Positions 36,937 to 62,865 of a stretch of 64,000 bases of DNA are shown here, piece after piece. The notes beneath the pieces were generated by a model. It did no database searches. It had not been told where the DNA came from and saw only the letters and a program-made list of their open reading frames with translations. How positions within the stretch are numbered: position 1 is the first letter of the stretch; each line of letters opens with the position of its first letter. A program made the translations under genes and the position numbers. Origin of the DNA: an uncultured Gammaproteobacteria bacterium (lineage in GTDB: Bacteria; Patescibacteriota; Microgenomatia; UBA8517); NCBI GenBank assembly GCA_964435575.1, contig CAYSZS010000001.1, positions 43,206-107,205 of the forward strand, read 5' to 3'.

Positions 36937-38151
36937 ATGGAAAAAATAGTAGTTGTAATGCCGGCTTGGAATGAGGAGGATAACATCAGCAAAATGATTA
37001 GGGAGTTGGTTGATGGTGAATTTCCGAAAATTAATGCCGAGATGCATCTTCTGGTTGTAGATAACCATTCTAAGGACAGAACCGAAGAGATTGTAAAAGA
37101 AGCTTCGAAAACGCGTAATAATGTCCACGTAATCCAGCAGGGTGACAGATCGGGGTTGGGCTGGGCGTATATTAATGGATTTAAGTATGCGATGAAAGAG
37201 TTGGGTGCAGACGCTGTAATGGAAATGGATGCGGATTTTCAGCATCCGCCGAGATTTGTTAAACCGATGGTCGAAGCGTATCTTCAAGGAGCAGATTACG
37301 TTATAGGCTCCCGTTATATTCAGGGCGGTTCAATTCCTAAAGAGTGGGCTTTATTTCGAAAAGCAATAAGTTATTTTGGCAATTTATTTATAAGGATCGT
37401 ACTTCTTAAGCCGAAAATTCATGATTTGACTACGGGTTTCAGATTGACAAGAGTTAAAGGCGTTTTAGAAAATATGGATTTGGATAACTTGATGGAACCT
37501 GGTAGATTTGCACACAAAGTTGACTTACTTTATCAGGCTATTAAAAACTCCAAAAAGACGGTTGAAGTTCCATTGGAGTTTGCTTCAAGAACTCAAGAAA
37601 AATCTAAATTCAATACCAAAGAAATGATCGCGACGTTTAAAGTCGCGATCATTTTAGGAATAAAAGATAAACAAAGGTTTATAAAGTTTGGCACGGTTGG
37701 GTTTGTCGGGTACCTGGTTAATGCGATAGCACTGGAGTTATTTGCGGGCACTAGTGTCACGTTAAGTCTGGCGAATGTTTTTATAGGTTTGAGAAACACA
37801 CCCTTAGCGTTTATAGCCGAATCTTCAGCATGGGCAGCCGCTTTTGCGGCTGAGCTCGCGATTATTAATAATTTTATATTTAACAACATCTGGACATTCA
37901 AAGAAAAGAAAATTACAGGGTTCTTCGCAATAATCAAAAAATTTTTAGCGTTTAACTTATCAACTGTTGGTGCCATAGTCATACAATTTATTGTAATTGG
38001 TATAATGGTTTTAGTTCTTGGAGATACAAGACTAATAAGACAGCTGGGAATTTTGGTAGCAATGCCGTTGGTACTTTCGTACAATTACGTGATGTATAAT
38101 CTCTTCATTTGGAAAACATGGAATTTAGCGAAAATATTCAGGAAGAAGTAG
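36937..38151 (+). CDS. Fusion protein. A GT2 polyprenyl-phosphate sugar synthase (DPM1/GtrB-like) is joined to a C-terminal GtrA-like 4-TM flippase module.
   Basis: GT2 part: VVMPAWNEEDNI, VVDNHSKDRT and EMDADFQHPP. C-terminal part: FIKFGTVGFVGYLVNAIALELF ... NNIWTFKEK, which carries the GtrA-family NxxWTF hallmark. Confidence 0.8.
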   Translation: MEKIVVVMPAWNEEDNISKMIRELVDGEFPKINAEMHLLVVDNHSKDRTEEIVKEASKTRNNVHVIQQGDRSGLGWAYINGFKYAMKELGADAVMEMDADFQHPPRFVKPMVEAYLQGADYVIGSRYIQGGSIPKEWALFRKAISYFGNLFIRIVLLKPKIHDLTTGFRLTRVKGVLENMDLDNLMEPGRFAHKVDLLYQAIKNSKKTVEVPLEFASRTQEKSKFNTKEMIATFKVAIILGIKDKQRFIKFGTVGFVGYLVNAIALELFAGTSVTLSLANVFIGLRNTPLAFIAESSAWAAAFAAELAIINNFIFNNIWTFKEKKITGFFAIIKKFLAFNLSTVGAIVIQFIVIGIMVLVLGDTRLIRQLGILVAMPLVLSYNYVMYNLFIWKTWNLAKIFRKK

Positions 38152-38350
38152 TTTGACTATCAAACGCTGGCGAAGATGCTTCATATATAATTTCTGATTG
38201 ACCTAGCGCGTTTCTTGGCGGGCAGTTTGGTTCTGGACATTTTGGTCTTGGGGGAAGATGTAACGTGTTACAGTGTTGACAATTGGTCCCTTCCAAACGC
38301 AATAACGGTCCTTTTAACCTCCACCACCGGGCAGGCGAATATTCAGACAT
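38138..38350 (-). CDS. Small Zn-ribbon ORF (DUF35_N/rubredoxin-like C-x2-C ... PPR-x2-C-x4-C), 70 aa
   Basis: TNCQHCNTLHLPPRPKCPEPNC. It lies in a locally GC-rich spacer. It may be a spurious ORF over a structured intergenic region. Confidence 0.3.
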   Translation of the reverse strand: MSEYSPARWWRLKGPLLRLEGTNCQHCNTLHLPPRPKCPEPNCPPRNALGQSEIIYEASSPAFDSQTTSS

Positions 38351-38399
38351 TTAATTATTAGTCGTGAAGCGATTGGAAAACACTCGTTAACAGATTAAC

Positions 38400-39608
38400 T
38401 TATAAAAGCGGTGACCAGTCGGAGATTGGCATTACGTTTTGGGAAATATAAGCAAGAGAAAAAAGATAAATTGGGATTATTAAGATCAACATCACATATT
38501 TGAATTCTTTTTTGATGATTGTATCCGAAAAAGCCATCAATAAAAATGGGACTATCGGAAGGGAATATCGGATAAGATCCCGATGCGAAACGAAAAGAAT
38601 GGACGCAAAGAATAAACCCACAAACCATGCAAGTTCCCGCTCTTTCATTTCGATAAGTTTTATTAGTCCCAGTAGCCCGAAAAGATAGACAAAAATAATT
38701 TCTTCTAACCAGAATGTACCTACCCAAGGTTGACTATAGTCAAAAATTTGAAAAGGGGGAAAGAAAAGGTGGATGTTATCTCCCGAATGGAAATAGGCGA
38801 GAAAGTCATTTAATCTTACTTTATAAAGTATAAAAACACCCAAAAGTGCGAAAGGAATTAGTGTTATAGAGCTAATTTTTTTGAAATCAAAAGATGATGA
38901 AACTTTTGAAATTGTAGAGATTGCTGCAAGCTTGAATTTTGGTAAGAAGATAAATGCCGCATAGGCAAGAACAAGAATTATTGCCGGAGATTTTGTCAGC
39001 TGTGCAACTAGCCCCCAAATCCCAGCTAATAGATACTTTCTTTGTTTAAAGTAGTACATCGAAGCAATTATTCCTGCAAGAAATAAAGGTTCAGATGAGC
39101 CAACGGACCGAACTATTAAAAAACGCGCAGGGAAAACCGCAAAAACAGCAGTTAACCATAAGGTATTCTTTTTTTCGACATAGTCTTGGATGAATAGATA
39201 AAAAAAGTAGATTGCGAGAATGGAGATTGTTACGGTTAGAAATAGCATAGAATAAACATATCCAATAAGTGGTGAAAATAATTTTATTAAAGCTGGAAAT
39301 AGAGGAAAGTGAGCCGCGTAGTATTGGGCAGGAAGTCCAAATTCAAAGTTACCCATAAGCTCAGGATTATAAAAAGTTTTTGCGACGACCAAAAATAAAG
39401 GGCCGTCGTAGTTGGCAACGATTGTTGCCATACCCTCGCGCGGTAATGGAATCCCCAAAACCCTTGGTATTCTCAAAAAGAAAGGAAGCCAAATTAATAA
39501 AGTAGGGATAACCGAGATTAAAGCAATTGCGATAATAGTCTTAATTTTGGATGCCATTTGACAAAATGATATAACGTTTAAAGTTCTTAAACAAGATTGA
39601 TAACTCAA
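38400..39608 (-). CDS. Polytopic membrane protein, GT-C-like glycosyltransferase candidate (only large minus-strand gene in the island)
   Basis: About 11 TM helices. The loop motif is ANYDGPLFLVVAKTFYNP. The likely start is MASKIKT (39555). Confidence 0.55.
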   Translation of the reverse strand: MSYQSCLRTLNVISFCQMASKIKTIIAIALISVIPTLLIWLPFFLRIPRVLGIPLPREGMATIVANYDGPLFLVVAKTFYNPELMGNFEFGLPAQYYAAHFPLFPALIKLFSPLIGYVYSMLFLTVTISILAIYFFYLFIQDYVEKKNTLWLTAVFAVFPARFLIVRSVGSSEPLFLAGIIASMYYFKQRKYLLAGIWGLVAQLTKSPAIILVLAYAAFIFLPKFKLAAISTISKVSSSFDFKKISSITLIPFALLGVFILYKVRLNDFLAYFHSGDNIHLFFPPFQIFDYSQPWVGTFWLEEIIFVYLFGLLGLIKLIEMKERELAWFVGLFFASILFVSHRDLIRYSLPIVPFLLMAFSDTIIKKEFKYVMLILIIPIYLFSLAYISQNVMPISDWSPLL

Positions 39609-39638
39609 ATGGATAGTCTATGACCATTGGTGTAGAAT

Positions 39639-40355
39639 TTGATCATGAAATACTTGATTAAAGAAATTTCGGTGTTTTTTCCGACTTATAACTTGGAGTC
39701 TAAAATTGAAAAGACTGTAAGGGATGCTTTTAGAATAGTTCCCAAGCTTGCAGAAAAATACGAAATAATTGTTATTAATGACGGAAGTAGGGATAAAACG
39801 GGTGAAGTTTTAAAAAAGCTTAAGCCTAAGTATAAAAACTTAAGAATAATTACACATCAACTAAATAAAGGTTACGGAGGAGCCCTAAAATCAGGATTTT
39901 ACAGCTCTAAATATTCTTGGATTGCTTTTACCGATGCTGATGGACAGTTTGATATCTCTGAACTTCCAAAGCTAATAAAAAAGCAAAAATCTTCAAGCGC
40001 TGACATTGTCGCCGGTTTTTATTTAAAGAGAGCAGTTTCTTTGTTGCGCAAGCTAAACACATGGTTATGGCAGTTGGTTGTCCGAATACTATTTAGATTA
40101 AAAGTAAAAGACATTGACTGTGGATTTAAATTAATTAGGAAAAAGGTTATCGATACTGTTCCTAAACTTGAATCCGAAAGAGGAGCATTTATATCAAGTG
40201 AATTTTTAATTAAAGCCCAAAAGTACGGTTTTAAAATTGTTGAGATTGGTGTTCATCATTATCCTCATACGGGAGGAAAAGGAACGGGTGCAGATTTGAA
40301 TGTAATAATTAACAGCTTCGTTGATCTTTTTAAATTGTGGCGAAAACTTCGATGA
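39639..40355 (+). CDS. GT2 polyprenyl-phosphate sugar synthase (DPM1/GtrB-like)
   Basis: VFFPTYNLESKI, IIVINDGSRDKT, GYGGALKSG and FTDADGQFD. Confidence 0.85.
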   Translation: MIMKYLIKEISVFFPTYNLESKIEKTVRDAFRIVPKLAEKYEIIVINDGSRDKTGEVLKKLKPKYKNLRIITHQLNKGYGGALKSGFYSSKYSWIAFTDADGQFDISELPKLIKKQKSSSADIVAGFYLKRAVSLLRKLNTWLWQLVVRILFRLKVKDIDCGFKLIRKKVIDTVPKLESERGAFISSEFLIKAQKYGFKIVEIGVHHYPHTGGKGTGADLNVIINSFVDLFKLWRKLR

Positions 40356-42016
40356 TAGATCTAATTACAAATTACAAATCACAAATTACAAAATGGGTTA
40401 AAGAAAATCGTCTCGAAGCATTTTGGTTGGCAGTAATTCTTATAATTGGGGCATTTTTCAGGCTTTACAGAATTGATGAGTATATGACATTCTTGGGAGA
40501 CGAAGGAAGAGACGCGATTATTGTCCGACGACTTCTTGTCAATTTTGATCCTATTTTAATTGGCCCAGGAACTTCGATCGGAAATATGTATTTAGGGCCA
40601 ATTTATTACTACATGATGGCACCCGCGCTTCTTCTGGCGGGTTTCAATCCCGCTGGACCTAGCGTTATGATTGCGTTATTGGGAGTATTTACAATGTGGT
40701 TTGTTTGGTTTGTAGTTCGAGGTTGGTTTCCCACTTCGCCAAGGTTTCGCGGGACGAGTCCATTTTCGATTAACGTAGCAGCACTTGGTTCAGCTGCCTT
40801 ATATGCTGTTTCCCCCGTAGTAATTAATTTTTCCAAATCTTCCTGGAATCCCAACATCATGCCATTTTTCTCGCTTTTGACTATTTATTCAATTTGGAAA
40901 TGGTGGATGGAAGGCAAATTTAAATGGATAGTAGTCACAGCGGTATCGATTGCATTTGTTTTACAGTCTCACTATTTAGGACTACTATTAGTTCCGGTAG
41001 TTGGACTTTTCTGTTTATTAACTTTTTTAAAAATTAACAGATTACAAATCACTGATCACCGATCATTGAAACGGAATTTTCTCAAATATTCAACATTTGG
41101 AATAGGTGCACTTACTATCCTAATGTTACCTCTTTTAATATTCGACCTTCGTCACAATTTCATGAACTTTAATGCGGTTAAGCAGTTTTTTACCCAAAGA
41201 CAAACAACTGTTTCCGCACTTCCTTGGAAGTCTATTCCAAAATTATCCGAGGTTATGAATGATTCCACTTCCTCGCTTCTGGGAGCAAAAAATGTGGATT
41301 TGACTTGGCTATTCACCTACGGAATTCTATTTTTTACTTTATGGATTTTAATTCGCGAACTTTTCTCAAAAAGAAAAATAAATATTAAAGATAAAAAATA
41401 TTGGAATTATCTTTGGGAAAAAATTGAAAATGCCAATTTATCACCTTATTTTTTACTGATAATCTGGTTATTAACGGCGTATGTCGGCTTAGGTCTTTAT
41501 AAACAACACATATATGATCACTATTATGGATTTTTCTTTACAGCTCCTTTTATATTGGTCGGGGGAATAACGCAATATATTTTGGATAATTTTAAATCGT
41601 ACTGGAAAATTATCATAACAATCTTTTTCATTTATGCAATAACTACCAATTTGGTCGGAAACCCATTAAAATATCCGCCAAATAGGCAAATGCAAAGAGC
41701 AATAGAGGTTGCCGAAAAAATTAAAGGAGAAGCCCGTGGTCAAAAATTTAATTTGGCAGTAATAGCCGAGAGAAATTACGAAGACGGTTACCAATATTTC
41801 TTAGAGAAATGGGGAGAGCCGGTTTACGACATCGACGCTTTAAATTACGAAAAAACTCTTGCTGATAATCTTTTTGTAGTTTGTGAAATGCCAAAGGAAA
41901 AATGTGACCCTGTTCATAATCCGAAAACCGAAGTAGCCAATTTCGGCTGGAGTAAGGTAGAAGGGGAATGGGAAGTCGGCGGAATTACTTTATATAAACT
42001 AATTCACACACAATGA
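40337..42016 (+). CDS. ArnT/PMT-like GT-C membrane glycosyltransferase
   Basis: The first periplasmic loop carries FLGDEGRDAIIV (an ArnT/PMT-type DE motif). There are many TM helices and a C-terminal soluble domain. A 7-bp tandem repeat (AATTACA x4) sits at codons 9-18. Confidence 0.7.
   Translation: MAKTSMIDLITNYKSQITKWVKENRLEAFWLAVILIIGAFFRLYRIDEYMTFLGDEGRDAIIVRRLLVNFDPILIGPGTSIGNMYLGPIYYYMMAPALLLAGFNPAGPSVMIALLGVFTMWFVWFVVRGWFPTSPRFRGTSPFSINVAALGSAALYAVSPVVINFSKSSWNPNIMPFFSLLTIYSIWKWWMEGKFKWIVVTAVSIAFVLQSHYLGLLLVPVVGLFCLLTFLKINRLQITDHRSLKRNFLKYSTFGIGALTILMLPLLIFDLRHNFMNFNAVKQFFTQRQTTVSALPWKSIPKLSEVMNDSTSSLLGAKNVDLTWLFTYGILFFTLWILIRELFSKRKINIKDKKYWNYLWEKIENANLSPYFLLIIWLLTAYVGLGLYKQHIYDHYYGFFFTAPFILVGGITQYILDNFKSYWKIIITIFFIYAITTNLVGNPLKYPPNRQMQRAIEVAEKIKGEARGQKFNLAVIAERNYEDGYQYFLEKWGEPVYDIDALNYEKTLADNLFVVCEMPKEKCDPVHNPKTEVANFGWSKVEGEWEVGGITLYKLIHTQ
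40363..40390 (+). repeat. Heptanucleotide tandem repeat (AATTACA x4) in the 5' coding region of a GT-C gene
   Basis: Read directly: aattaca aattaca aatcaca aattaca. Confidence 0.8.
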
Positions 42017-43020
42017 AAAGATATCAAACACTCCATTGTCACACAAAAACATCTGATGGTTTTCTTACGCATAGACAAGTATTAGATATATGTGGAGAAA
42101 ATAATATAGGTGTTGTGGCGTTTACGGATCACGATAGTTTACCGAAAGATAAAGTAATTAAAGAGTTATTAGAAAATAAAAAACATCCAGCGAAGTGGAT
42201 TGTTGGAATAGAAATATCTGCAGATAAGCCAACCGACTTTAAGGATAAATTTAGTCCTCATATAGTGGGTTTATTTGTTGACCCCTTCAATAGAGATTTA
42301 ATTAAGCACTGTGAAATGGCGCAGGAAGCAAGGCGGGAGAGAATGAGTCATATGGTCAAAAAACTTAACGGGTTAGGATTTAATCTAATAGAAGAGGATT
42401 GTTTAAAAGCTTCAAAGGGGGAAGCAGTTGGAAGGCCACATATTGTTCAAGCAATTAAGTCAAAGGAGGAAAATCTTGAACTAATTGAAAAATTAAGAAA
42501 GAAGATGGAACAGGATGCTGATAAAAATGAGGAGTTAAGAATTAAATATGATCTGATGATGCAGAGAGGAGAGAGCCAATATCCTTATGTACTTTTCTTA
42601 AGCGACGACTCTTATATTAAGGGTGTATATGTTGACTATCTTTATCGGATAAATCTGGACGATTGTGTAAAGCTTATCAGAAAGGCGGGTGGTTTGGCTT
42701 TCTTTGCCCACTGGTTTACGGAAATCAGTAAGTGCGATGAAACTTCAATGGAGAAATTATTAAGAGAGGATAGAATTGATGGAGCTGAAACAGTCTATGG
42801 ATTTTATGACGATATAAAAGATGAATTTATGAGACAAAGAGCAATATTGCAAAAAATAATTAATAGATATCATAAACTAGAAAGCGGTGGAGCTGATGCC
42901 CACACGGAGGAACAATTGAAGGATTTTGCCAAAGATAGTTGGTATGCTGGTTTGACGATAGATATGGCGGAAAATATTTTATCAAGCGGGAAAGTTGATG
43001 GAAAGTGGAGCTCGTTGTAA
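42013..43020 (+). CDS. PHP-domain metal-dependent phosphoesterase
   Basis: LHCHTKTSDG ... FTDHDS matches the PHP motif I/II histidines. Confidence 0.75.
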   Translation: MKRYQTLHCHTKTSDGFLTHRQVLDICGENNIGVVAFTDHDSLPKDKVIKELLENKKHPAKWIVGIEISADKPTDFKDKFSPHIVGLFVDPFNRDLIKHCEMAQEARRERMSHMVKKLNGLGFNLIEEDCLKASKGEAVGRPHIVQAIKSKEENLELIEKLRKKMEQDADKNEELRIKYDLMMQRGESQYPYVLFLSDDSYIKGVYVDYLYRINLDDCVKLIRKAGGLAFFAHWFTEISKCDETSMEKLLREDRIDGAETVYGFYDDIKDEFMRQRAILQKIINRYHKLESGGADAHTEEQLKDFAKDSWYAGLTIDMAENILSSGKVDGKWSSL

Positions 43021-43023
43021 GTT

Positions 43024-43539
43024 TTGGTTAGTCTTTCGATATATCTATCAAGAAAGTTCTTCAAGTTGCGAGAAAGTTTGCTAAAGAAAATGCAAAATAA
43101 AAAACAAAAGGAAAAAGATATTCATACACACGTAATTCTAGTCGCAGGATTTGTACAAAAGGGAGATAAATATTTAATTGCGCGACGAAAAAGCGATGAT
43201 CCTCAAGCGGGTGGTAAATGGTCATTACCAGGTGGAAAAGTTGATTTTGATATTGGAGGACAGATAATAGAGAAAACTCTTCAAAGAGAAATTAACGAGG
43301 AAGTTGGGGTTAAAATTACAGGTGAAATTGAATTTCTAGGAAATAATGCTTTTATTCGGTCGAGTGGGCATCATGTGGTAGCCCTTGTTTTTTTATGTTA
43401 TTGGAAAAGTGGCATTGCAAAACCTCTTGAGGGGCATGATAAGATTCTATGGTTAACTTTGGAAGAACTAAGGAATTTCAAAGACGCCGACCCCTTTTTT
43501 ATAGAAACTATTGACTTGCTTGTCAGACATCTTTCCTAA
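43024..43539 (+). CDS. NUDIX hydrolase
   Basis: The Nudix box is GGKVDFDIGGQIIEKTLQREINEEVGV (Gx5Ex7REUxEExGU). Confidence 0.85.
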   Translation: MVSLSIYLSRKFFKLRESLLKKMQNKKQKEKDIHTHVILVAGFVQKGDKYLIARRKSDDPQAGGKWSLPGGKVDFDIGGQIIEKTLQREINEEVGVKITGEIEFLGNNAFIRSSGHHVVALVFLCYWKSGIAKPLEGHDKILWLTLEELRNFKDADPFFIETIDLLVRHLS

Positions 43540-43650
43540 TTCTTCAATTTAAATTATTTTTCCCAGATTTTGTGGTAACATCTCCAACATTGGCTCTGAA
43601 TTCATTTCAACCGACAATGGATTGTCGGAATCTTGAAATCATAGTAAAAT

Positions 43651-46697: not shown

Positions 46698-46777
46698 TAA
46701 GATAAGAACAGCTAAATGGTAATATCGCTGAATAGTTGGTAGTAAAGTAAACGATAAACAAATTCAACTATTTAGCT

Positions 46778-47551: not shown

Positions 47552-47579
47552 TCGGTTTAAGTTTAAGAATAAGTCTAAG

Positions 47580-49187: not shown

Positions 49188-49219
49188 ATTTTAAGATTTT
49201 AATATTCTTTAGAAATAAG

Positions 49220-50236: not shown

Positions 50237-50288
50237 GATTGCTAGCGCAGGAAATTACTTCCCTTTAGCTTTGTGATATCATCAATTA

Positions 50289-55627: not shown

Positions 55628-57299
55628 ATTTGTTTATCTATTACTGACACTTTTGCTAATACCAGCAGCTTTTTTCCTTTTAATTCCAGGGTTTTACGAA
55701 CCTCATGACCTCCACCATTTTGCAGATATTTACGAAATGTATCGGGCAATTTCTTCAGGTCAAATTCCACCTCGGTTAGGACCTGATTTTATTTTCGGCT
55801 ATGGATATCCCCTTTTTAATTTTTATTATGTTTTGCCTTTTTATATAGGAAGTTTTTTTTATGCTGTTTTGGGAAGTTTGCAAATTAGTTTCAAATTAGT
55901 TTTTGTTGCAAGCATAATTTTATCAGTTTTTGGAATGTTTTTTTTCCTGAGAGAGTTTTTCGGGAAGTGGGCCGCATTTACCGGATCCGTTTTATTTTTA
56001 TATACTCCCTATCGCGCAGTCCAAATATATGTACGAGGAGCGATGGGGGAGGCACTTGCATTATCTCTTTTACCTTTTGTTTTGTGGTCGGCGGTTCGAT
56101 TGATCAAACAACCCGGAAAGCGAGTTTTGGTTGCGATCTTGTCATTTATCTCGGCCCTTTTTATACTTTCACACAATTATTTTTGGGTAATCAGCCTTCC
56201 TTTCATTCTTGTTTTGCTTACTTTATTGATTGATAAAGAGAATTTGGCCCTTACTATTCGTTCTCTATTAACAACTTTTCTTCTTTCTATAGGTTTAACC
56301 TCCTATTGGTGGTTACCAGCTTTAATAGAACAAGGTACGGTTTCTTCGACCACCCCTTTTCCACTAATTGATCATTTCCCTTTCATCAAACAGTTAATAA
56401 TCCCTTCTTGGGGATATGGAAGTTCAGTTTGGGGATCGGGAGATGGAATGTCGTTCCAGGTAGGCGTCATTAACTGGTTTGTGTTTTTAATTCTTATTGG
56501 GATGATTTTGTTTAAAAGACTTGTAAGTAATAAACAAATTTCAAAACTTGCTATCTGGTCGATTACGGGTTTTTTAGTAAGTCTTTTTATGATGAATATT
56601 CGCTCCTACCCCTTATGGAAAATTCTGCCGTTTCATGACTTTATTCAGTTTCCTTGGAGACTTTTATTTTTGACAACGCTTTTTACAAGTGTAATGGCAG
56701 CGGTTAGCGTTGAAGTGTTAAATAAGCGTGGAAAATATTTAGCATCGACTATAATACTAGGAAGCTTACTTTTGACTTTTCATTATTTTCAACCGAGTAA
56801 AATATTTTATCATACAGATGATGATTATTTATCAAGGTTCTTTGCAAACCGTACAACTCAAGGGGAAAAACGTGAGGTTTCTAAAGAATATTTGAATTAC
56901 AGCGAAGACTACCTCCTTTTACCCAAATGGGTTGACCAACGACCGAGAAGCTTACCTCATCAAAAAATAGAATCCGACGTAATTAGTGTTTTCGATATCG
57001 AGGAAATTACTCCAGTGAAGTGGGTTGTCTTTGTTGAGACAAAGGAAAATTCGAAAGTTACTTTTAATTCTTTATATTTTCCCGGATGGTTTGCAAAAAT
57101 TGACGGTAATCCTACTCTGATAACATTAGAGAAACCGCTCGGACTGATAGAAACACAGGTTCCATTAGGTAAGCATGAAATTTCTTTCTATTGGGCGGAA
57201 ACCCCATTGCGGAAAATGGCAGATCTCATAAGTTTATTTTCGTTAGGAATAAACGGGTTTTTATTTTGGAATGAAAAAAAAGAGCACAACCGAAAATAG
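55611..57299 (+). CDS. GT-C-like membrane glycosyltransferase, tandem paralog 3 of 3 (more diverged)
   Basis: A degenerate N-terminal motif (HDLHHFADIYEMYRAISSGQIPPRLGPDFIFGYGYPLFNFYY) without the Cys pair. It has the same TM architecture and C-terminal segment (FPGWFAKIDG). Confidence 0.6.
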   Translation: MMKRNKFVYLLLTLLLIPAAFFLLIPGFYEPHDLHHFADIYEMYRAISSGQIPPRLGPDFIFGYGYPLFNFYYVLPFYIGSFFYAVLGSLQISFKLVFVASIILSVFGMFFFLREFFGKWAAFTGSVLFLYTPYRAVQIYVRGAMGEALALSLLPFVLWSAVRLIKQPGKRVLVAILSFISALFILSHNYFWVISLPFILVLLTLLIDKENLALTIRSLLTTFLLSIGLTSYWWLPALIEQGTVSSTTPFPLIDHFPFIKQLIIPSWGYGSSVWGSGDGMSFQVGVINWFVFLILIGMILFKRLVSNKQISKLAIWSITGFLVSLFMMNIRSYPLWKILPFHDFIQFPWRLLFLTTLFTSVMAAVSVEVLNKRGKYLASTIILGSLLLTFHYFQPSKIFYHTDDDYLSRFFANRTTQGEKREVSKEYLNYSEDYLLLPKWVDQRPRSLPHQKIESDVISVFDIEEITPVKWVVFVETKENSKVTFNSLYFPGWFAKIDGNPTLITLEKPLGLIETQVPLGKHEISFYWAETPLRKMADLISLFSLGINGFLFWNEKKEHNRK

Positions 57300-58608
57300 T
57301 TTAGTTGATATAGTACTAAGAAATCGAAGGAGAATTTTTCTGGTGGCCCTCCTTCTTATCGGATTTTTTATAAGATTTTACTATGCAGATAAATTCGTTA
57401 AGGAAAGTGGCGACCTACGACTTTATGCGGATTGGGGAGAGAAATTCTGGGAATATGGATCAAAAAATTTTTATTTCGTAAAAGAATGGTATTACGCACC
57501 CCCGAATTATCCGCCGATACTTTCGCTTATCTATGCAGGATCCTATTGGTTATTTGACCATAAATACGTTTTGGCACAAATTCATAATGCGACACGCTTA
57601 GTTCCGGCTGTTTTCATTATCTACTTTTACGATCACGGTTATTATCTCCTTCTTAAATTACCCGGGATTATGGCTGATTTGGGATTGGCATATTTAATAT
57701 ATAAAGTTGTTTTTGAGTTAACAAAGAATACAAAACGTTCGCTTATCGCTTTTTCTTTTTATCTATTTAATCCTATCTCTATTTTTTTGAGCGGAGCATG
57801 GGGGCAAACAGACAGTTTGGTATCGCTTTTTGGAATACTTTCATTTTTAGTTCTTTTTTCGAGGTATATCTGGCTTTCAATCCCTCTTTTATTTATCAGT
57901 TTTTATATAAAACCAAATTGGGGGTTATTTATTCCACTGTATTTATTTATTCTGTTTGGTAAAAAACCCAAATTTAAATATGTAGGATTCGGAATTATAA
58001 TGTCGGTTATAATTTTTATAGTTACTACACTTCCTTTTAGTCAAGGAAGTGTTTTATCTTTTTCTAAATATTTACTGGAATCCAGGATTTTGCCAACCGC
58101 CAGCATTACACACAAAGCATCGGTTTCCGCTTTCAATTTCCATACAATTTTTTTTGAAATAGATAGGACTTCGGATGAAGAACCTGTTTTGGGAATTCCT
58201 GCGAATATTTTCGGGATAATAATTTTTATCTTAGTTAATGTTGTTTCCTTTTGGTACTCGAGGAAACAAAAATACAACATTAAATCGCTAATGGTTGCAC
58301 TTTTTTTAATCGGATTTTCAGGGTACCTTTTTTTGACAAATATGTTAGAGAGGTATTTTTTCGCAGGCTTCGTTCCTCTGATTATTATTGGTTTTACCAA
58401 TACCAGGTTATTAGTTTATCTATTACTTATCAACCTGGCAACTTTTTTAAACCTGGTTTATGCGTTTTTTCGTCGATCGGTCGGTGAAATTGCAGACCTT
58501 TTCACTGAAAATGATTTCTTGGCTATAAGGGTGCTATCAACCCTTAATTTGTTTGGCTTTGTTATTTTGTTGAAAAAATTCAATCCGATTTCTTTCAAGA
58601 AAAGTTAA
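57271..58608 (+). CDS. Polytopic membrane protein, GT-C-like (GT87/DUF2029-like, tentative)
   Basis: About 11 TM helices. The first loop carries LRLYADWGEKFWEY ... YYAPPNYPP. Confidence 0.5.
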   Translation: MKKKSTTENSLVDIVLRNRRRIFLVALLLIGFFIRFYYADKFVKESGDLRLYADWGEKFWEYGSKNFYFVKEWYYAPPNYPPILSLIYAGSYWLFDHKYVLAQIHNATRLVPAVFIIYFYDHGYYLLLKLPGIMADLGLAYLIYKVVFELTKNTKRSLIAFSFYLFNPISIFLSGAWGQTDSLVSLFGILSFLVLFSRYIWLSIPLLFISFYIKPNWGLFIPLYLFILFGKKPKFKYVGFGIIMSVIIFIVTTLPFSQGSVLSFSKYLLESRILPTASITHKASVSAFNFHTIFFEIDRTSDEEPVLGIPANIFGIIIFILVNVVSFWYSRKQKYNIKSLMVALFLIGFSGYLFLTNMLERYFFAGFVPLIIIGFTNTRLLVYLLLINLATFLNLVYAFFRRSVGEIADLFTENDFLAIRVLSTLNLFGFVILLKKFNPISFKKS

Positions 58609-58624
58609 GTGATAAAATTTTAAA

Positions 58625-60121
58625 ATGTCTGATATAACAAAAACACAGGACCATTTGGATCCCACCGGCGAAATTAGTTTGGAAGCGGTAAAATCGAGGG
58701 CGGTTAAAGGTGTTGTTGTTTTAACGGGTCGGACCTTTATCCTTCAAATAGTATCATTTTCCGCCTGGTTTTTTCTTTCGGTCTTTTTAGATGCCCGGGA
58801 AATCGGGGTTTTCTTTATAGTATCTGCAGTAGTAAATTTCCTGCGCTATTTTTCCGACATCGGTTTGGCCGCTGCCTTAATTCAAAAAAAGGAGAAAGTT
58901 GACGAAGCCGATCTTAAAACAACCTTCACTATCCAGCAGGGGCTGGTAATACTGCTTTTGCTGTTTTTATATATTTCGGCTCCTTTTTTCCAGCGATATT
59001 ATTCATTGAGCTATGAGGGATTACTGCTTTTTTATGCGCTGGGCGTATCTTTTCTTTTTTCATCTTTAAAAACCATTCCCTCGGTTTTATTGGAACGCGA
59101 GCTGAAGTTCGGGAAATTGGTTATTCCCGATGTTTTGGAGAACCTTGTTTACAATTTAACCGCGGTATATTTCGCCTGGCAGGGAATGGGGATAACAAGC
59201 TTTACTTATGCAGTATTGCTGCGCGGTATAGTCGGGTTAATCGCGATTTATATAATTCGTCCCTGGCTTCCCGGACTGGCCTTCGCCGGAAAATCTTTGA
59301 GAAAACTTTTGACTTTCGGAGTTCCGTACCAACTGAATACTTTTTTGGCGACAGTAAAAGACGACGGAATGACGGCATTTTTGGGAGGAATTCTCGGAGC
59401 AACCGGTATTGGCTATCTCGGCTGGGCGCAAAAATGGGCGCAGACGCCTCTCCGGCTATTTTTGGATAATGTTACAAAAGTCACCTTTCCGGCATTTTCA
59501 CGCATGCAGGACGATAAAAAACATCTCGAAAGCAGTGTCACAAGATCAATATATTTTGTTGCCTTTTTAGTTTTTCCGTCGATTGTCAGCCTTTTGGTTT
59601 TGGCACCCGTTTTGGTAGAAATAATTCCAAGGTATGATAAATGGCAGCCGGCGCTTCTACCTTTGGCACTGGTCAGCGTCAATGTGATTATGGCTGTTTC
59701 AACGACCCAGATTACCAATCTATTCAACGCGATAGGTAAAATTAAAATAACTTTTAAACTGATGTTAATGTGGACGATTCTCACCTGGTTATTTGTTCCC
59801 TTTTTCGGATTAAGATTCGGTGTCAATGGCGCGGCATTCGGCTATGCTCTCGTAGGCGCGAGTTCGGTGATTGCGATTTATATCGGGAAAAGACATGTCA
59901 ACTTTTCTCTTAAATACAGCTTGCTGAATCCGGCAATCGCTTCGGTTATTATGGCCATTGTAATGCTTTTGGTAAGAAATATATTGCCTGTTAATATTTT
60001 CGGACTTTCGTTAATCGCTTTGGTCGGTCTTGCAGCCTATTTTGCGGCATCTTTTGCAATTGTCGGCAGGTCTCTTCTGGAAGATGGTAAAAAATCTCTT
60101 TCAACTCTTTTCAGTCGCTAA
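58625..60121 (+). CDS. Wzx-like oligosaccharide/polysaccharide flippase (MOP superfamily)
   Basis: About 12-14 TM helices. The N-terminal architecture is typical of polysaccharide biosynthesis proteins (charged residues in TM1/TM2). It sits in a GT island. Confidence 0.7.
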   Translation: MSDITKTQDHLDPTGEISLEAVKSRAVKGVVVLTGRTFILQIVSFSAWFFLSVFLDAREIGVFFIVSAVVNFLRYFSDIGLAAALIQKKEKVDEADLKTTFTIQQGLVILLLLFLYISAPFFQRYYSLSYEGLLLFYALGVSFLFSSLKTIPSVLLERELKFGKLVIPDVLENLVYNLTAVYFAWQGMGITSFTYAVLLRGIVGLIAIYIIRPWLPGLAFAGKSLRKLLTFGVPYQLNTFLATVKDDGMTAFLGGILGATGIGYLGWAQKWAQTPLRLFLDNVTKVTFPAFSRMQDDKKHLESSVTRSIYFVAFLVFPSIVSLLVLAPVLVEIIPRYDKWQPALLPLALVSVNVIMAVSTTQITNLFNAIGKIKITFKLMLMWTILTWLFVPFFGLRFGVNGAAFGYALVGASSVIAIYIGKRHVNFSLKYSLLNPAIASVIMAIVMLLVRNILPVNIFGLSLIALVGLAAYFAASFAIVGRSLLEDGKKSLSTLFSR

Positions 60122-60179
60122 GATAAATAGAGCAGGCCGGTTTTTGATTTTAGCCGGTTCGCTGGTCTGGTCTTTGACT

Positions 60180-61832
60180 ATGGTAAAAAGTGGATTGGTT
60201 TACAATTATGGAATGGGATTTTGGGGTCCGAACGGACATGACGGAATTTGGCACATAAGTTTGGCAAATTCATTAGCAAGAGGATTGTGGCAGATGCCGA
60301 TTTTCGCGGGAGAAACTATTAAGAACTATCACATAGGATTTGATTTGGTACTTGCCATACTTCATAAACTGACTTTTATTCCAATTCATACTTTGTATTT
60401 TCAAATACTTCCCCCAATCTTTGCATTCTTAATTGGCTTATTTGCTTATTTGTTTACTCTGTCTTGGAAAAATTCCACGAAATCGGCTTTTTGGGCGACT
60501 TTTTTTGTGTATTTCGGTGGAAACTGGGGTTGGCTAGTAACTTTAATAAGAGGGAAAGAGTTGGGTGGAGAGAGTCTGTTTTGGTCACAACAGGCAATAT
60601 CGACGCTTATCAACCCACCCTTCGCCCTGTCACTTATCTTGATATTTTCCGGATTGTGGGTACTTGTAAAAGGACTACAGACTAAAGATAAAAGACTTTT
60701 TATTATTGCTACATTTTTATTCGGAGTTTTGGTGCAGGTCAAGGTTTATGCTGGAATTTTGGTTTTAGCAGGACTTTTTATGGCGGGATTTTGGAGAATG
60801 GTTAAAAAGCAGGGAATTGACTTAATCAAAGTTTTTACAGGTTCCTTGCTAATTTCTTTTTTGATTTTTTCTCCGTTAATAGGAAGCGTTGGGCAAACGG
60901 TAATTTTTCAGCCCTTTTGGTTTTTGGAAAGCATAGTTTCTTCACCTGACCGCTTTTATTGGCCAAAAATGGCAAGCGCAATTGCAAACTATAAATTGGC
61001 GGGAAATTGGCCAAGATTAATTCTTGCCTATGGAGTGACATTTGCTATTTTTTGGTTTGGAAACTTGGGTACAAGAATTTTAAAAGAGCCGCTGTTTTTT
61101 GTACACCTTAAAAATCTCAAGAAACTTTCATTCATTGAAGTATTTTTGTATAGCATTATAGGGCTAGGGGTTTTACTTCCGACTCTATTTATCCAAAAAG
61201 GAAATTCCTGGAACACAATTCAATTTATGTATTATTCTTTGGTGTTTTCTGGAATTCTAGCTGGGGTTTGTTTGGGAAAGTATTTAGATAAAAATGCGGA
61301 CGAGAAGCACAGCACTATGATACATCATAGTAAGCGAGTGGGTCTAATTTTATTAATAATAGCGATGACGGTACCAACTAGCGTTGGGACTTTGAAACAC
61401 TACTTACCCCAAAGACCTCCAGCGATGATTTCAAATCAAGAACTTGAAGCACTTGATTTTCTTGCAAATCAGCCAGATGGAACTGTCCTAACTCAGCCTT
61501 TTGGCAGAGAAAAAGCCCTTGCAGCTCAATCAAATCCGCCAAGACCTCTTTACCTTTACGAGTCAACTGCCTATGTTTCGGCTTTTTCCGGGAAACAGAC
61601 GTATTTGGAAGATGAAGTTAACTTAGAAATAACGGGATATGACTGGAGAAAAAGGAGAAAAGAAGTTGAACCATTTTTTGGCGAGAACTGTAAAATAGAC
61701 GTAAATTTCTTTACTGACAAAGAGGTCTCATATATTTATTTAGTAAAGCAAAATTTATGTAAAAGGGAATTTGAGACAATTGCAGATAAAATATTTGAAA
61801 ATCTGGAGGTTGTGGTATTTAAGGTTAATTAG
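60180..61832 (+). CDS. Large polytopic membrane protein with a C-terminal soluble domain (GT-C-like or polymerase/ligase-like)
   Basis: The ORF is open from 60030 but overlaps wzx up to 60121. The start is probably the TTG near 60148 or the ATG at 60180. There is a GPNGHDGIWHISLANS periplasmic motif, more than 10 TM helices and a roughly 180-aa C-terminal domain. Confidence 0.5.
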   Translation: MVKSGLVYNYGMGFWGPNGHDGIWHISLANSLARGLWQMPIFAGETIKNYHIGFDLVLAILHKLTFIPIHTLYFQILPPIFAFLIGLFAYLFTLSWKNSTKSAFWATFFVYFGGNWGWLVTLIRGKELGGESLFWSQQAISTLINPPFALSLILIFSGLWVLVKGLQTKDKRLFIIATFLFGVLVQVKVYAGILVLAGLFMAGFWRMVKKQGIDLIKVFTGSLLISFLIFSPLIGSVGQTVIFQPFWFLESIVSSPDRFYWPKMASAIANYKLAGNWPRLILAYGVTFAIFWFGNLGTRILKEPLFFVHLKNLKKLSFIEVFLYSIIGLGVLLPTLFIQKGNSWNTIQFMYYSLVFSGILAGVCLGKYLDKNADEKHSTMIHHSKRVGLILLIIAMTVPTSVGTLKHYLPQRPPAMISNQELEALDFLANQPDGTVLTQPFGREKALAAQSNPPRPLYLYESTAYVSAFSGKQTYLEDEVNLEITGYDWRKRRKEVEPFFGENCKIDVNFFTDKEVSYIYLVKQNLCKREFETIADKIFENLEVVVFKVN

Positions 61833-62768: not shown

Positions 62769-62865
62769 TGCCAATCTACGAATTTATGCGAATGTTACGA
62801 ATAGATACGGATTATGTAGATTAAGACTCTATTATCTAAATCCCAAATCATTTGTATTTATTAGT

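What the first reader, a model, noticed from the sequence alone, without database searches (positions are those of the whole stretch)
36937..61832. Exceptionally dense three-component glycosylation island. It holds four DPM1-like GT2 polyprenyl-P-sugar synthases, about 13 polytopic GT-C-like transferases and a Wzx flippase in 25 kb.
The sequence shows GT2 enzymes of the DPM1/GtrB/CsbB type at 36937, 39639, 46778 and 51548. Each is followed by one or more large polytopic GT-C-like proteins (ArnT/PMT-like DE-loop proteins at 40337, 43651, 45204 and 47580; others at 38400, 50289, 52269, 53954, 55611, 57271 and 60180), plus a Wzx-type flippase at 58625.

From established knowledge, a GtrB-type synthase, a GtrA flippase and a GT-C transferase together form extracytoplasmic glycosylation systems that modify lipoteichoic acid, O-antigen, S-layer proteins or glycoproteins. 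I infer that this organism decorates its envelope or secreted proteins with several different sugars through parallel lipid-linked pathways. The heavy Pro/Thr-rich linkers on its secreted proteins are plausible O-glycosylation substrates.

The acceptor(s) are unknown. The number of GT-C paralogs far exceeds what known polymer pathways need, and the family-level identity of several members is unclear to me.
Basis: partly seen in the sequence, partly recalled or inferred. Interest (0 to 1): 0.62.

Follow-up and report, generated by a model that had tools for sequence, protein, structure and literature searches.

The report
Dense envelope glycosylation island in Woesebacteria
A tiny-genome groundwater bacterium (Candidatus Woesebacteria) packs four lipid-sugar donor synthases, eleven membrane sugar-transferases and a flippase into 25 kb. 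One transferase belongs to an undescribed family shaped like the enzymes that attach whole sugar chains to proteins in archaea and eukaryotes, so the locus probably builds and varies the cell's sugar coat.

Summary
All ORFs exist at the stated coordinates. Four GT2 enzymes match polyprenyl-phosphate sugar synthases (PfDPMS, GtrB, ArnC) over the whole catalytic domain. There are eleven polytopic GT-C-like proteins in the interval, not 13; 13 is the count for the whole window. Ten of the eleven are supported by Pfam scores, paralogy or predicted structure; o38400 is only probable. ORF 58625 is a Wzx/MOP flippase.

The source is a Candidatus Woesebacteria (CPR) genome of about 0.9 Mb.

The "three-component" reading is only partly right. 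There is no free-standing GtrA, and three of the synthases have no membrane anchor. The Wzx belongs to a separate module: Wzx, then an STT3-like GT-C (60144-61832), then soluble GT2s. This order is kept in 75 of 80 species-level Microgenomatia genomes.

The STT3-like family has no Pfam or NCBIfam model and lacks the WWDYG motif. Its closest structures are oligosaccharyltransferases. In a sister strain that is 100% identical from 48.6 kb up to the gene and about 98% identical after it, this gene alone is 62-68% identical.

Best model: a conserved branch that transfers a whole glycan at once, plus a variable set of single-sugar branches acting outside the membrane. The acceptor (protein or wall polymer) is unresolved. 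I rate it a new variant of a known kind.

The parts
36937..38151 (+). DPMS-type polyprenyl-phosphate sugar synthase: a GT2 catalytic domain fused to a C-terminal GtrA/DPMS-type TM domain.
   Evidence: PF00535 at 98 bits plus PF04138 at 43 bits. PfDPMS 5mlz at E 1.9e-38 over residues 3-277. Contains the motif MDADFQHPP.
38400..39557 (-). Probable GT-C-like membrane protein (385 aa), highly conserved in Woesebacteria and transcribed divergently from the main array.
   Evidence: About 9 hydrophobic segments. NCBIfam AZOBR_p60025 at E 8e-11, below its threshold. 2480 homologs at 63-76% identity; about 10 of the 120 listed carry PMT_2, and JGI names some 'Gpi18-like mannosyltransferase'. Invariant NYDGP after TM1. 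No structural test was run.
39645..40355 (+). Small DPM1/ArnC-like GT2 (236 aa, no TM). Its stop overlaps the start of the next GT-C gene.
   Evidence: PF00535 at 98.6 bits. NCBIfam ArnC model positions 5-222 of 316, E 6e-21. Profile of the three small GT2s against PDB. Amphipathic C-terminal helix with hydrophobic moment 0.58.
40352..42016 (+). PMT_2/ArnT-like GT-C (554 aa).
   Evidence: PMT_2 at 20 bits, below threshold. Paralog of 43657 and 45204, BLAST 2e-22 and 8e-16. GDEGRD after TM1.
42013..43020 (+). PHP-family phosphoesterase. Its role in the island is unknown.
   Evidence: PHP at 25.7 bits. NCBIfam matches to 3',5'-nucleoside bisphosphate phosphatase and RNase RNM, both below threshold.
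43024..43539 (+). NUDIX hydrolase. It may trim a nucleotide-sugar pool; this is inference.
   Evidence: PF00293 at 57.9 bits.
43657..45207 (+). PMT_2/ArnT-like GT-C (516 aa). It is split into two ORFs in sister strain UT19.
   Evidence: PMT_2 at 20 bits. Paralogy. YYDQGRD after TM1. Split into 273 + 193 aa in L004.
45204..46697 (+). PMT_2/ArnT-like GT-C (497 aa).
   Evidence: PMT_2 at 32.5 bits, above the threshold of 26.1. HDQD after TM1.
46778..47551 (+). Small DPM1-like GT2 (257 aa, no TM), directly upstream of a PMT-type GT-C.
   Evidence: PF00535 at 97.6 bits. 32.5% identical to 51548 over the full length. NCBIfam PpgS model positions 4-224 of 226. The GT2-then-PMT gene order recurs in 14 of 19 related loci that have this GT2 type.
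47580..49187 (+). PMT/PMT_2 GT-C (535 aa). This is the clearest protein-O-mannosyltransferase/ArnT-like member.
   Evidence: PMT_2 at 62.8 bits and PMT at 32.4 bits. GDEAIY after TM1.
49226..50236 (+). C45-family autoproteolytic acyltransferase/hydrolase. Its role is unknown.
   Evidence: PF03417 at 120 bits. NCBIfam C45_proenzyme at 178 bits, above its threshold of 85.
50289..51551 (+). GT87 (PimE-like) GT-C (420 aa).
   Evidence: GT87 at 25.8 bits against a threshold of 25. Linked to the 57271 family by hhalign at E 3.7e-5 and by a local HMM at 3.6e-6.
51548..52276 (+). Small DPM1-like GT2 (242 aa, no TM). It overlaps both neighbouring genes.
   Evidence: PF00535 at 127 bits. PfDPMS residues 23-240 aligned to residues 4-226, E 1.2e-16; GtrB at 2e-16.
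52269..57299 (+). Three tandem PTPS_related (PF10131) GT-C paralogs: 52269-53957, 53954-55627 and 55611-57299.
   Evidence: PF10131 at 30-41 bits against a threshold of 26.4. 30-38% identical to one another. The trio's HMM hits the PMT-type 47580 at 7.8e-6. MHDD after TM1.
57271..58608 (+). ALG6/ALG3/PimE-class GT-C (445 aa, or 421 aa if it starts at 57343).
58625..60121 (+). Wzx-type MOP flippase.
   Evidence: Polysacc_synt_3 at 169 bits. NCBIfam MOP flippase at E 5e-36 and O-glycosylation flippase at 6e-28, both below threshold. About 12 hydrophobic segments. Lies directly upstream of the STT3-like gene in 75 of 80 genomes.
60144..61832 (+). STT3-like GT-C (562 aa) from a Microgenomatia-wide family that has no Pfam or NCBIfam model. 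Candidate transferase for a whole glycan.
61869..63834 (+). Two soluble GT2 enzymes (61869-62768 and 62866-63834). The second is rhamnosyltransferase-like. They are part of the conserved cassette and are the presumed cytoplasmic glycan builders.
   Evidence: PF00535. TIGR01556 rhamnosyltransferase at E 1e-21, below threshold. No TM segments. Soluble GT2 genes directly follow the STT3-like gene in 70 of 80 loci.
16389..28914 (+). Upstream glycan block that probably belongs to the same system: rmlABCD, a GT2-GT4 fusion, a GT4, a PIG-L deacetylase, a GNAT-like protein, and two further polytopic putative GTs (25592 and 27283).
   Evidence: Pfam matches. NCBIfam LA_3751/3752 putative GT family at E 4.6e-15 and 1.7e-3, below threshold. 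8-10 hydrophobic segments each.

Best explanation
This is the main envelope-glycan locus of a Candidatus Woesebacteria (CPR) cell. It combines two mechanisms.

(1) A conserved core that transfers a whole glycan at once. Soluble GT2 and GT4 enzymes (61869, 62866 and genes beyond the window) build an oligosaccharide on a polyprenyl carrier at the inner face of the membrane. They probably draw on dTDP-rhamnose from the rmlABCD genes at 16.4-19.7 kb. The Wzx flippase (58625) moves the lipid-linked glycan across the membrane. The STT3-like GT-C (60144) then transfers it to an acceptor outside the membrane.

(2) A variable periphery of four single-sugar branches. Each DPM1-type GT2 (36937, 39645, 46778, 51548) loads one sugar from a nucleotide sugar onto polyprenyl phosphate. 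After flipping, the adjacent GT-C enzymes use that lipid-sugar on the outer face to start, extend or decorate glycans. There are one to four such GT-Cs per synthase, from the PMT_2, PMT, GT87, PTPS_related and ALG6-like families. The targets would be the same polymer and/or exported proteins with Pro/Thr-rich linkers.

What is shown: the enzyme classes, the fold assignments, the gene order and its conservation, and the strain-level variability.

What is inferred: the donor sugars, which synthase feeds which GT-C, how the lipid-sugars are flipped, whether a whole glycan is transferred at once, and the identity of the acceptor.
For: GT2 class.
- 36937 matches PfDPMS at 1.9e-38 and carries a GtrA_DPMS_TM domain.
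- A profile of the three small GT2s has PfDPMS (2e-28), GtrB (1e-24) and ArnC (6e-22) as its best PDB matches that cover most or all of the catalytic domain. The teichoic-acid GlcNAc transferase TarP also aligns nearly end to end but much more weakly (4e-13). Other GT2s, including the high-scoring chondroitin synthase, align only over the N-terminal part (at most about 150 residues).
- All four share the DxD and D..GF(K/R) motifs, and none has QxxRW.

GT-C class.
- Pfam and paralogy support eight proteins.
- Foldseek independently ranks STT3 first for 60144.
- All eleven have an acidic residue just after TM1.

Coupling of genes.
- 4-29 nt overlaps link GT2 and GT-C genes.
- The small GT2 directly precedes a PMT-type GT-C in 14 of 19 related loci.

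The cassette.
- Wzx directly precedes the STT3-like gene in 75 of 80 species-level genomes. The other five loci are cut by contig ends.
- Soluble GT2s directly follow in 70 of 80.
- Fusion proteins exist: Wzx with the STT3-like domain (P0022), and Wzx with a paralog and the STT3-like domain (P0439).
- rml genes and a rhamnosyltransferase-like GT2 are present.

Pro/Thr-rich exported proteins are encoded in the same window.
Against: - No initiating phosphoglycosyl transferase (WecA or WbaP type) was seen in the window or in 10 kb flanks of relatives. The start of the carrier-linked glycan is therefore unexplained.
- The STT3-like protein lacks the WWDYG motif and gives no sequence-level hit to STT3, PglB or AglB. 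Fold similarity alone cannot tell whether it transfers a whole glycan or one sugar at a time.
- Three synthases have no TM anchor, and no free GtrA flippase exists.
- 38400, 25592 and 27283 are GT-C only by weak evidence.
- Profile-profile comparisons between the families were mostly uninformative.
- Nothing here identifies an acceptor.
Confidence: 0.6

Rival explanations
1. Archaeal-type (Agl-like) protein glycosylation. A DPM1-like GT2 starts a glycan on polyprenyl monophosphate, soluble GT2s extend it, and the Wzx (in the role of AglR) flips it. The STT3-like GT-C then acts as a true oligosaccharyltransferase on S-layer, pilus or Pro/Thr-rich proteins. Further GT-Cs add final sugars from lipid-sugar donors, as AglS and AglD do in Haloferax.
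For: - The closest structures to 60144 are STT3, AglB and PglB, and its C-terminal domain matches that of AglB.
- The set of components mirrors the Haloferax pathway. NCBIfam gives sub-threshold hits to AglJ, Dol-P hexose transferase, Agl23 and Agl16.
- Starting the glycan on a monophosphate carrier would explain the missing phosphoglycosyl transferase.
- The cassette is conserved, and fusions with Wzx occur.
Against: - No WWDYG motif in 40 of 40 family members, and no STT3 Pfam hit.
- All the Agl hits are far below their thresholds.
- No glycoprotein data exist for CPR bacteria.
Confidence: 0.25
2. Mycobacterium-like assembly of a lipoglycan or wall polysaccharide outside the membrane. Most of the GT-Cs act in sequence to polymerise and branch a glycan, in the manner of LM/LAM or arabinogalactan, from polyprenyl-P-sugars. 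The STT3-like enzyme would be a polymerase or ligase for that polymer, and proteins would not be the main acceptor.
For: - GT87/PimE-like and ALG6/PimE-class members are present.
- From established knowledge, only the actinobacterial polymer pathways are known to use this many GT-C enzymes.
- The small anchorless synthases resemble Ppm1 and PpgS.
- rml genes and GT4 genes lie upstream.
Against: - No recognisable phosphatidylinositol-mannoside starting enzymes or Emb/Aft-specific family hits. The GT4 matches to MshA are generic.
- PMT-type members with the DE motif are classically protein O-mannosyltransferases or ArnT.
- No chemistry is available.
Confidence: 0.3
3. Firmicute-style decoration only (the CsbB/GtcA/YfhO, GacI/GacL or PgfS/PgfM type). 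Each GT2 and GT-C pair adds single side-chain sugars to a teichoic-acid-like or rhamnose polymer that is made elsewhere. The many paralogs would reflect decoration that varies by phase or strain.
For: - PgfS is the best NCBIfam hit for 36937 and 51548.
- YfhO and PgfM2-like genes lie just beyond the window in the sister strain.
- rml genes are present.
- Strain-level mosaic variation falls inside GT-C genes.
Against: - No GtcA/GtrA partner.
- Eleven to fifteen GT-Cs far exceed any known decoration system.
- The universally conserved Wzx and STT3-like core argues for a backbone pathway rather than optional decoration.
Confidence: 0.15
4. Some of the polytopic proteins are not glycosyltransferases. 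They could be Wzy polymerases, O-antigen ligases, transporters or scaffolds such as PIG-U, and the small GT2s could be ordinary cytoplasmic enzymes that extend glycans.
For: - 38400 has no family hit above threshold.
- The small GT2s lack membrane anchors.
- TarP, which is not a lipid-phosphate synthase, also aligns nearly end to end.
Against: - The acidic residue after TM1 is invariant across homologs.
- PfDPMS, GtrB and ArnC are the best PDB matches that cover most or all of the catalytic domain of the small GT2s.
Confidence: 0.08

Closest known systems
Haloferax volcanii Agl N-glycosylation pathway (AglJ and AglD DPM1-like GT2s, AglG/I/E soluble GTs, AglR Wzx-like flippase, AglB oligosaccharyltransferase, AglS GT-C). 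This comparison rests on established knowledge.
   Same: The parts list matches: DPM1-type GT2 synthases, soluble GT2s, a MOP/Wzx flippase, an STT3-fold transferase with an AglB-like C-terminal domain, and further GT-Cs that use lipid-sugar donors.
   Different: The organism is a bacterium. The STT3-like enzyme has no WWDYG motif and no sequence-level similarity to AglB. There are far more GT-C paralogs here. Every Agl-family HMM hit is well below its threshold.
Actinobacterial Ppm1/PpgS synthases with the GT-C enzymes Pmt, PimE (GT87), MptA-C, Aft and Emb, which carry out protein O-mannosylation and LM/LAM/arabinogalactan assembly.
   Same: Small polyprenyl-P-sugar synthases without their own TM anchor. 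Many GT-Cs act outside the membrane. GT87 and PMT families are present, as are Pro/Thr-rich exported proteins.
   Different: The genes are clustered in one island rather than scattered. The locus also contains a Wzx and STT3-like cassette and PTPS_related paralogs. No PimA/PimB-specific or Emb/Aft family matches were found.
Three-component Gtr-type systems: GtrA/GtrB/Gtr(type), CsbB/GtcA/YfhO, and PgfS/PgfM1/PgfM2 (PMC5836110, PMC12041528).
   Same: A GtrB/CsbB/PgfS-like GT2 is encoded next to a GT-C. PgfS is the best NCBIfam hit for two of the GT2s. In streptococci, Ser/Thr-rich disordered regions are the substrates (PMC12041528).
   Different: No free-standing GtrA or GtcA. Three of the GT2s lack the two C-terminal TM helices of GtrB. 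Each synthase is followed by one to four GT-Cs rather than one.
STT3/AglB/PglB oligosaccharyltransferases (GT66).
   Different: No WWDYG, DK or MI motifs were recognised, and there is no Pfam STT3 hit. At 562 aa it is shorter. It is often duplicated in tandem or fused to a distant paralog.
ArnC/ArnT lipid A modification.
   Same: An ArnC-like GT2 (full-length match at E 6e-22) followed by an ArnT/PMT_2-like GT-C with an acidic loop-1 motif.
   Different: From established knowledge, CPR bacteria are not expected to have a lipid A acceptor. No arnA, arnB, arnD, arnE or arnF genes were seen.

Membership tests
DPM1/GtrB/ArnC-type polyprenyl-phosphate sugar synthase (GT2) | GT-A GT2 domain with a single DxD motif and no QxxRW processivity motif. 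| tested here: met
   PF00535 at 98-127 bits. DAD or DMD at about residue 95-99. No [QR]xxRW.
DPM1/GtrB/ArnC-type polyprenyl-phosphate sugar synthase (GT2) | Similarity to solved Pren-P synthases across the whole catalytic domain, including the acceptor-side half. | tested here: met
   Profile of the three small GT2s: PfDPMS 2e-28 (positions 4-226), GtrB 1e-24 (positions 4-188), ArnC 6e-22 (positions 7-239). TarP also aligns nearly end to end but much more weakly (4e-13). The remaining GT2s align only over the N-terminal part, at most about 150 positions. 36937 against PfDPMS: 1.9e-38.
DPM1/GtrB/ArnC-type polyprenyl-phosphate sugar synthase (GT2) | Membrane attachment through C-terminal TM helices, as in GtrB, ArnC and PfDPMS. 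| tested here: not met
   Met only by 36937 (PF04138). 39645, 46778 and 51548 have no hydrophobic segments and only amphipathic C-terminal helices. Anchorless members are known (human DPM1, mycobacterial Ppm1 and PpgS; established knowledge), so this lowers the claim without excluding it.
DPM1/GtrB/ArnC-type polyprenyl-phosphate sugar synthase (GT2) | Transfer of a sugar from a nucleotide sugar to polyprenyl phosphate. | not testable with these tools
   Needs an enzyme assay.
GT-C superfamily | Polytopic membrane protein with 8-13 TM helices. | tested here: met
   About 7-11 hydrophobic segments in all 11 proteins. The models of 57271 and 60144 are all-helical membrane bundles.
GT-C superfamily | Conserved acidic residue in the first loop outside the membrane. 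| tested here: met
   D or DE shortly after TM1 in all 11. It is invariant across homologs for 60144 (D33), 57271 (D48) and 38400 (D68). Loop topology was inferred from sequence, not measured.
GT-C superfamily | GT-C fold. | tested here: met
STT3/AglB/PglB oligosaccharyltransferase (GT66), considered for 60144-61832 | STT3-type TM core plus the C-terminal globular domain. | tested here: met
STT3/AglB/PglB oligosaccharyltransferase (GT66), considered for 60144-61832 | WWDYG motif in the C-terminal domain. | tested here: not met
   No WW[DE] or W.D[YFW]G in any of 40 family members. I therefore do not file it as a GT66 member.
STT3/AglB/PglB oligosaccharyltransferase (GT66), considered for 60144-61832 | Sequence-level membership (Pfam STT3 model or a PDB sequence hit). 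| tested here: not met
   No Pfam or NCBIfam family and no PDB sequence or profile hit.
Three-component Gtr-type system | A small GtrA/GtcA-family membrane protein encoded alongside the GT2 and the GT-C. | tested here: not met
   phmmer with the GtrA-like domain of 36937 against every window ORF of 60 aa or more finds only 36937 itself. No other small ORF matched this GtrA-like domain. The domain exists only fused to 36937.
Wzx / MOP flippase (58625) | Polysacc_synt/Polysacc_synt_3 family membership with about 12 TM segments, and not MurJ. | tested here: met
   PF13440 at 169 bits and PF01943 at 66 bits. NCBIfam MOP flippase, O-glycosylation flippase and TuaB models, all below threshold. About 12 hydrophobic segments. 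No MurJ/MVIN hit was listed.
Wzy polymerase / O-antigen ligase, considered for 57271 and 60144 | Wzy_C/O-antigen ligase fold or family. | tested here: not met

The most novel reading that the evidence does not exclude
The family represented by 60144-61832 is a previously unrecognised class of bacterial oligosaccharyltransferase. It has an STT3-like fold, lacks WWDYG, is found across Microgenomatia, and is always encoded directly after a Wzx.

On this reading it transfers Wzx-flipped lipid-linked glycans whole onto surface proteins (S-layer, pili or Pro/Thr-linker proteins), following archaeal Agl-like logic. The allele-level replacement between otherwise almost identical strains would reflect selection from hosts or phages on the surface glycome of these episymbionts.
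Probability: 0.25. Interest if true: 0.8.

Novelty: new variant of a known kind. Interest (0 to 1): 0.6.

Why it matters
CPR/Patescibacteria cells live attached to or dependent on other microbes. Their surface is the interface for that lifestyle, yet its chemistry is essentially unknown.

This locus and its upstream block occupy roughly 50-60 kb of a genome that is about 0.9 Mb in complete relatives. Glycan display is therefore a major investment for the cell.

The conserved cassette of Wzx, STT3-like GT-C and GT2s gives a concrete, testable handle on CPR envelope biogenesis. If the enzyme is an oligosaccharyltransferase, it would widen the known sequence space of STT3-fold enzymes and could be useful for glycoengineering.

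The gene-sized allele swap and the mosaic patches inside GT-C genes point to surface-glycan diversification between otherwise almost identical strains. That is the pattern expected for phage or host recognition determinants.

Tried and rejected
- PDB sequence searches with single sequences and with profiles for 57271, 60030, 53954 and the 38400 family gave nothing meaningful.
- Pfam scans of 40 and 39 family members gave only stray weak hits: PMT_2 in 1 of 40 and GT87 in 2 of 39.
- hhalign between families (38400 against 57271; PTPS trio against the 60144 family) was uninformative, with probability below 1%.
- I considered Wzy polymerase or O-antigen ligase for 57271 and 60144 and rejected it on fold.
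- I considered that the large (about 1000-1160 aa) relatives of 60144 were all Wzx fusions and rejected it. Most carry a distant tandem paralog at the N-terminus. Only P0022 and P0439 contain a Wzx.
- I considered MurJ for 58625 and rejected it on family assignment.
- tRNA and Rfam scans of the window found nothing.
- Literature searches for GT-C enzymes, oligosaccharyltransferases or mannosyltransferases in CPR, Patescibacteria or Woesebacteria found nothing relevant. The one exception is a note of GT87 and three Dol-P-Man synthases in a Saccharibacterium (PMC6031116).
- The AlphaFold-database fold library was unavailable.

Full report
OBSERVATION.

Pfam places GT2 domains at 36937, 39639, 46778 and 51548, with E-values from 1e-27 to 1e-36. 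36937 also carries a C-terminal GtrA/DPMS TM domain.

Eleven polytopic proteins lie in 36.9-61.8 kb, each with about 7-11 hydrophobic segments.
- 47580 (PMT_2 62.8 bits, PMT 32.4 bits) and 45204 (32.5 bits) pass Pfam's thresholds.
- 40337 and 43651 score 20 bits but are paralogs of 45204 (BLAST 1e-16 to 1e-22).
- 50289 is GT87 (25.8 bits against a threshold of 25).
- 52269, 53954 and 55611 are PTPS_related paralogs (30-41 bits; 30-38% identical to one another).
- 38400(-), 57271 and 60030 had no Pfam family.

58625 is a Wzx/MOP flippase (Polysacc_synt_3, 169 bits).

The count in the interval is therefore 11, not "about 13". Thirteen is reached only by adding two polytopic putative GTs upstream, at 25592 and 27283. 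The interval also contains a PHP phosphoesterase, a NUDIX hydrolase and a C45 acyltransferase.

SOURCE. Identical proteins and the same gene order occur in Rifle groundwater assemblies of Candidatus Woesebacteria / Microgenomates: GW2011_GWC1_38_12, the UT19 assembly GCA_000993305.1, and A2865. Complete relatives are about 0.90-0.92 Mb. The window has no tRNA or Rfam hits.

Upstream lie rmlABCD, a GT2-GT4 fusion, a GT4, a PIG-L deacetylase and a GNAT-like protein. About 7 kb of unrelated genes separates that block from the island: trmD, a XerC-like integrase, a DUF5615 protein and a MacAB-like ABC system.

THE GT2 ENZYMES. 36937 matches the Pyrococcus Dol-P-Man synthase structure 5mlz at 1.9e-38 through the catalytic domain and into the TM region.

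A profile of the three small GT2s (236-257 aa) has PfDPMS as its best PDB hit (2e-28, positions 4-226). GtrB (1e-24) and ArnC (6e-22, positions 7-239) follow. The teichoic-acid GlcNAc transferase TarP also aligns nearly end to end but much more weakly (4e-13). Other GT2s align only over the N-terminal nucleotide-binding part; this includes chondroitin synthase, which scores almost as high as PfDPMS (4e-25) because it has two such domains.

All four share the DAD/DMD and D..GF(K/R) motifs, and none has QxxRW.

One caveat remains. The three small enzymes have no TM segment and only amphipathic C-terminal helices. From established knowledge this resembles human DPM1 and mycobacterial Ppm1 and PpgS, not GtrB.

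Local HMMs link this family to 50289 and 47580, and link the PTPS trio to 47580.

All eleven proteins carry an Asp or DE just after TM1. This residue is invariant across homologs where I tested it.

38400 is only probable. Its NCBIfam hit is below threshold, about 10 of its 120 homologs carry PMT_2, and its PDB profile search was empty.

THE STT3-LIKE GENE. The ORF at 60030 most likely starts at 60144. That gives the 562-aa protein P0043, 22 nt after the Wzx stop.

Its family has more than 1400 close homologs and 1550 representatives at 50% clustering. It occurs in 361 species-level genomes, all Microgenomatia. It has no Pfam or NCBIfam model and no PDB hit by sequence or profile.

Foldseek independently ranks nine STT3 structures first, at 1e-9 to 6e-8. 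AglB and PglB come at about 2e-7, and ArnT and AftA only at 4e-4.

None of 40 family members has a WWDYG-like motif. I therefore describe it as STT3-like in fold and do not file it as a GT66 member.

COMPARATIVE GENOMICS. Across 80 species-level loci, Wzx lies directly upstream of the STT3-like gene in 75. The other five loci are cut by contig ends. Soluble GT2s follow directly in 70, in agreement with annotated contigs.

The surrounding PTPS, PMT, PMT_2, ALG6-like and GT87 genes and the DPM1-like GT2s vary in number and order. The small GT2 is directly followed by a PMT-type GT-C in 14 of 19 loci that have it.

Fusions of Wzx with the STT3-like domain exist (P0022 in strain UT19; the triple fusion P0439). 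Most long relatives, however, are fusions with a distant tandem paralog.

In UT19 the island continues beyond the window with three GT2s, a GT4, a YfhO, two more GT2s and a PMT_2.

WHAT IS MISSING. There is no free GtrA. No WecA-, WbaP- or PglC-type initiating enzyme appears among the window ORFs I scanned or in the sister-strain flanks. Nothing points to an acceptor.

MODEL. I propose a conserved core that transfers a whole glycan, plus a variable periphery of four single-sugar branches. In the core, cytoplasmic GTs build the glycan, Wzx flips it, and the STT3-like GT-C transfers it. In each peripheral branch a DPM1-type GT2 is followed by one to four GT-Cs.

The enzyme classes, folds, synteny and gene overlaps are shown. 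The donors, the pairing of synthases with GT-Cs, the flipping step, transfer of a whole glycan and the acceptor are inferred. My confidence in the composite model is about 0.6.

The rivals differ mainly in the acceptor:
- Agl-like protein glycosylation (0.25). This would also explain the missing initiating enzyme.
- A mycobacterium-like lipoglycan or wall polymer (0.3).
- Firmicute-style decoration only (0.15).
- Non-catalytic or non-GT roles for some members (0.08).

Pro/Thr-rich linkers on exported proteins in the same window are real. Comparable regions are glycosylated by GtrB/GT-C systems in streptococci (PMC12041528). No link to this locus has been demonstrated.

STRAIN VARIATION. The UT19 contig is 100% identical to the window from 48,625 to 60,024 and 98% identical overall from 61,716 to the window end (the differences there cluster at 62.6-63.2 kb). 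Across the STT3-like gene it is only 62-68% identical in nucleotides and 70% in amino acids. This is a clean replacement of one gene-sized allele.

Other contigs that are otherwise 99.6-99.9% identical overall show 300-bp patches of 75-85% identity inside the GT-C genes 43657 and 45204. Patches of 96-98% occur at the 3' end of 40352.

NOVELTY. The building blocks are known kinds. The unreported features are the Microgenomatia-wide cassette of Wzx, STT3-like GT-C and GT2s; the sequence family itself, which has no model and no WWDYG; and the scale of GT-C expansion in a 0.9-Mb genome. I found nothing on these in the searchable literature. I rate the finding a new variant of a known kind, with interest 0.6.

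Noticed in passing
window 60025-61700 compared with L009 (UT19, LBVW01000004.1): The STT3-like GT-C gene is only 62-68% nt identical between two strains, while the compared upstream flank (48,625-60,024) is 100% identical and the downstream flank 98%. This is a gene-sized allelic replacement. In UT19 the allele is fused in frame to Wzx (P0022, 1008 aa).
   Followed up: partly
window 44780-45079, 45680-45979 and 41480-42079, compared with L002, L003 and L001: Short mosaic patches of 75%, 85% and 96-98% identity lie inside or at the 3' ends of GT-C genes, on contigs that are otherwise 99.6-99.9% identical overall. This suggests local recombination or diversification of the regions that face outward.
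   Followed up: partly
window 43657-45207 compared with L004: In strain UT19 this GT-C gene is called as two ORFs (273 + 193 aa). It is either a pseudogene or a frameshift variant of one paralog.
   Followed up: no
window 25592-27289 and 27283-28914: Two further polytopic proteins (8-10 hydrophobic segments) have only sub-threshold hits to the NCBIfam LA_3751/LA_3752 putative glycosyltransferase family. They are probably more GT-C-like enzymes outside the finding's interval.
   Followed up: partly
window 16389-25646: rmlABCD (the dTDP-rhamnose pathway) is followed by a 934-aa GT2-GT4 fusion, a GT4, a PIG-L-family deacetylase and an Acetyltransf_6 (GNAT-like) protein. This is a second glycan block that may supply the island.
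   Followed up: partly
window 90-695, 2193-3590, 3620-4108, 7041-9452 and 11285-12244: Five proteins carry Pro/Thr(Ser)-rich linkers such as [16 protein letters not shown] and PTAPTAPTAPTSPTAP; at least three have an N-terminal signal peptide or membrane anchor. They include an S8 subtilase and a CAP-domain protein and are candidate O-glycosylation substrates.
   Followed up: partly
window 49226-50236: A C45-family autoproteolytic acyltransferase/hydrolase (NCBIfam 178 bits) sits between a PMT-type GT-C and a GT87-type GT-C. The same gene is at this position in all six near-identical contigs of this population. Its role is unexplained.
   Followed up: no
window 42013-43539: PHP-family phosphoesterase and NUDIX hydrolase genes are inserted, with gene overlaps, between GT-C genes. 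They may act on nucleotide-sugar or carrier-lipid phosphates.
   Followed up: no
P0401, P0405, P0411, P0420, P0422, P0058 (one search hits); L007, L008: Many relatives of the STT3-like family are 1000-1160 aa proteins. In P0058 the N-terminal half is a distant paralog of the same family, and five others checked carry no Pfam domain there. In other genomes a 591-628 aa protein with no Pfam match lies just upstream of the STT3-like gene, or of the Wzx that precedes it. This hints at an obligate hetero-pair like Pmt1-Pmt2 or EmbA-EmbB.
   Followed up: partly
window 30159-33135: trmD, a XerC/D-like tyrosine recombinase and a DUF5615/PIN-like protein lie between the two glycan blocks. The recombinase could be relevant to rearrangement of the island.
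   Followed up: no
loci L014, L018, L021, L022 and others: Many TPA metagenome-assembled genomes titled 'uncultured Gammaproteobacteria bacterium' carry this Microgenomatia-specific cassette. The record titles look like placeholder mislabels.
   Followed up: no
window 5556-6863, 7041-9452 and 9474-10673: Three large proteins, two with clear N-terminal signal peptides, have no Pfam family. They are candidate surface, S-layer or adhesin proteins next to the glycan loci.
   Followed up: no
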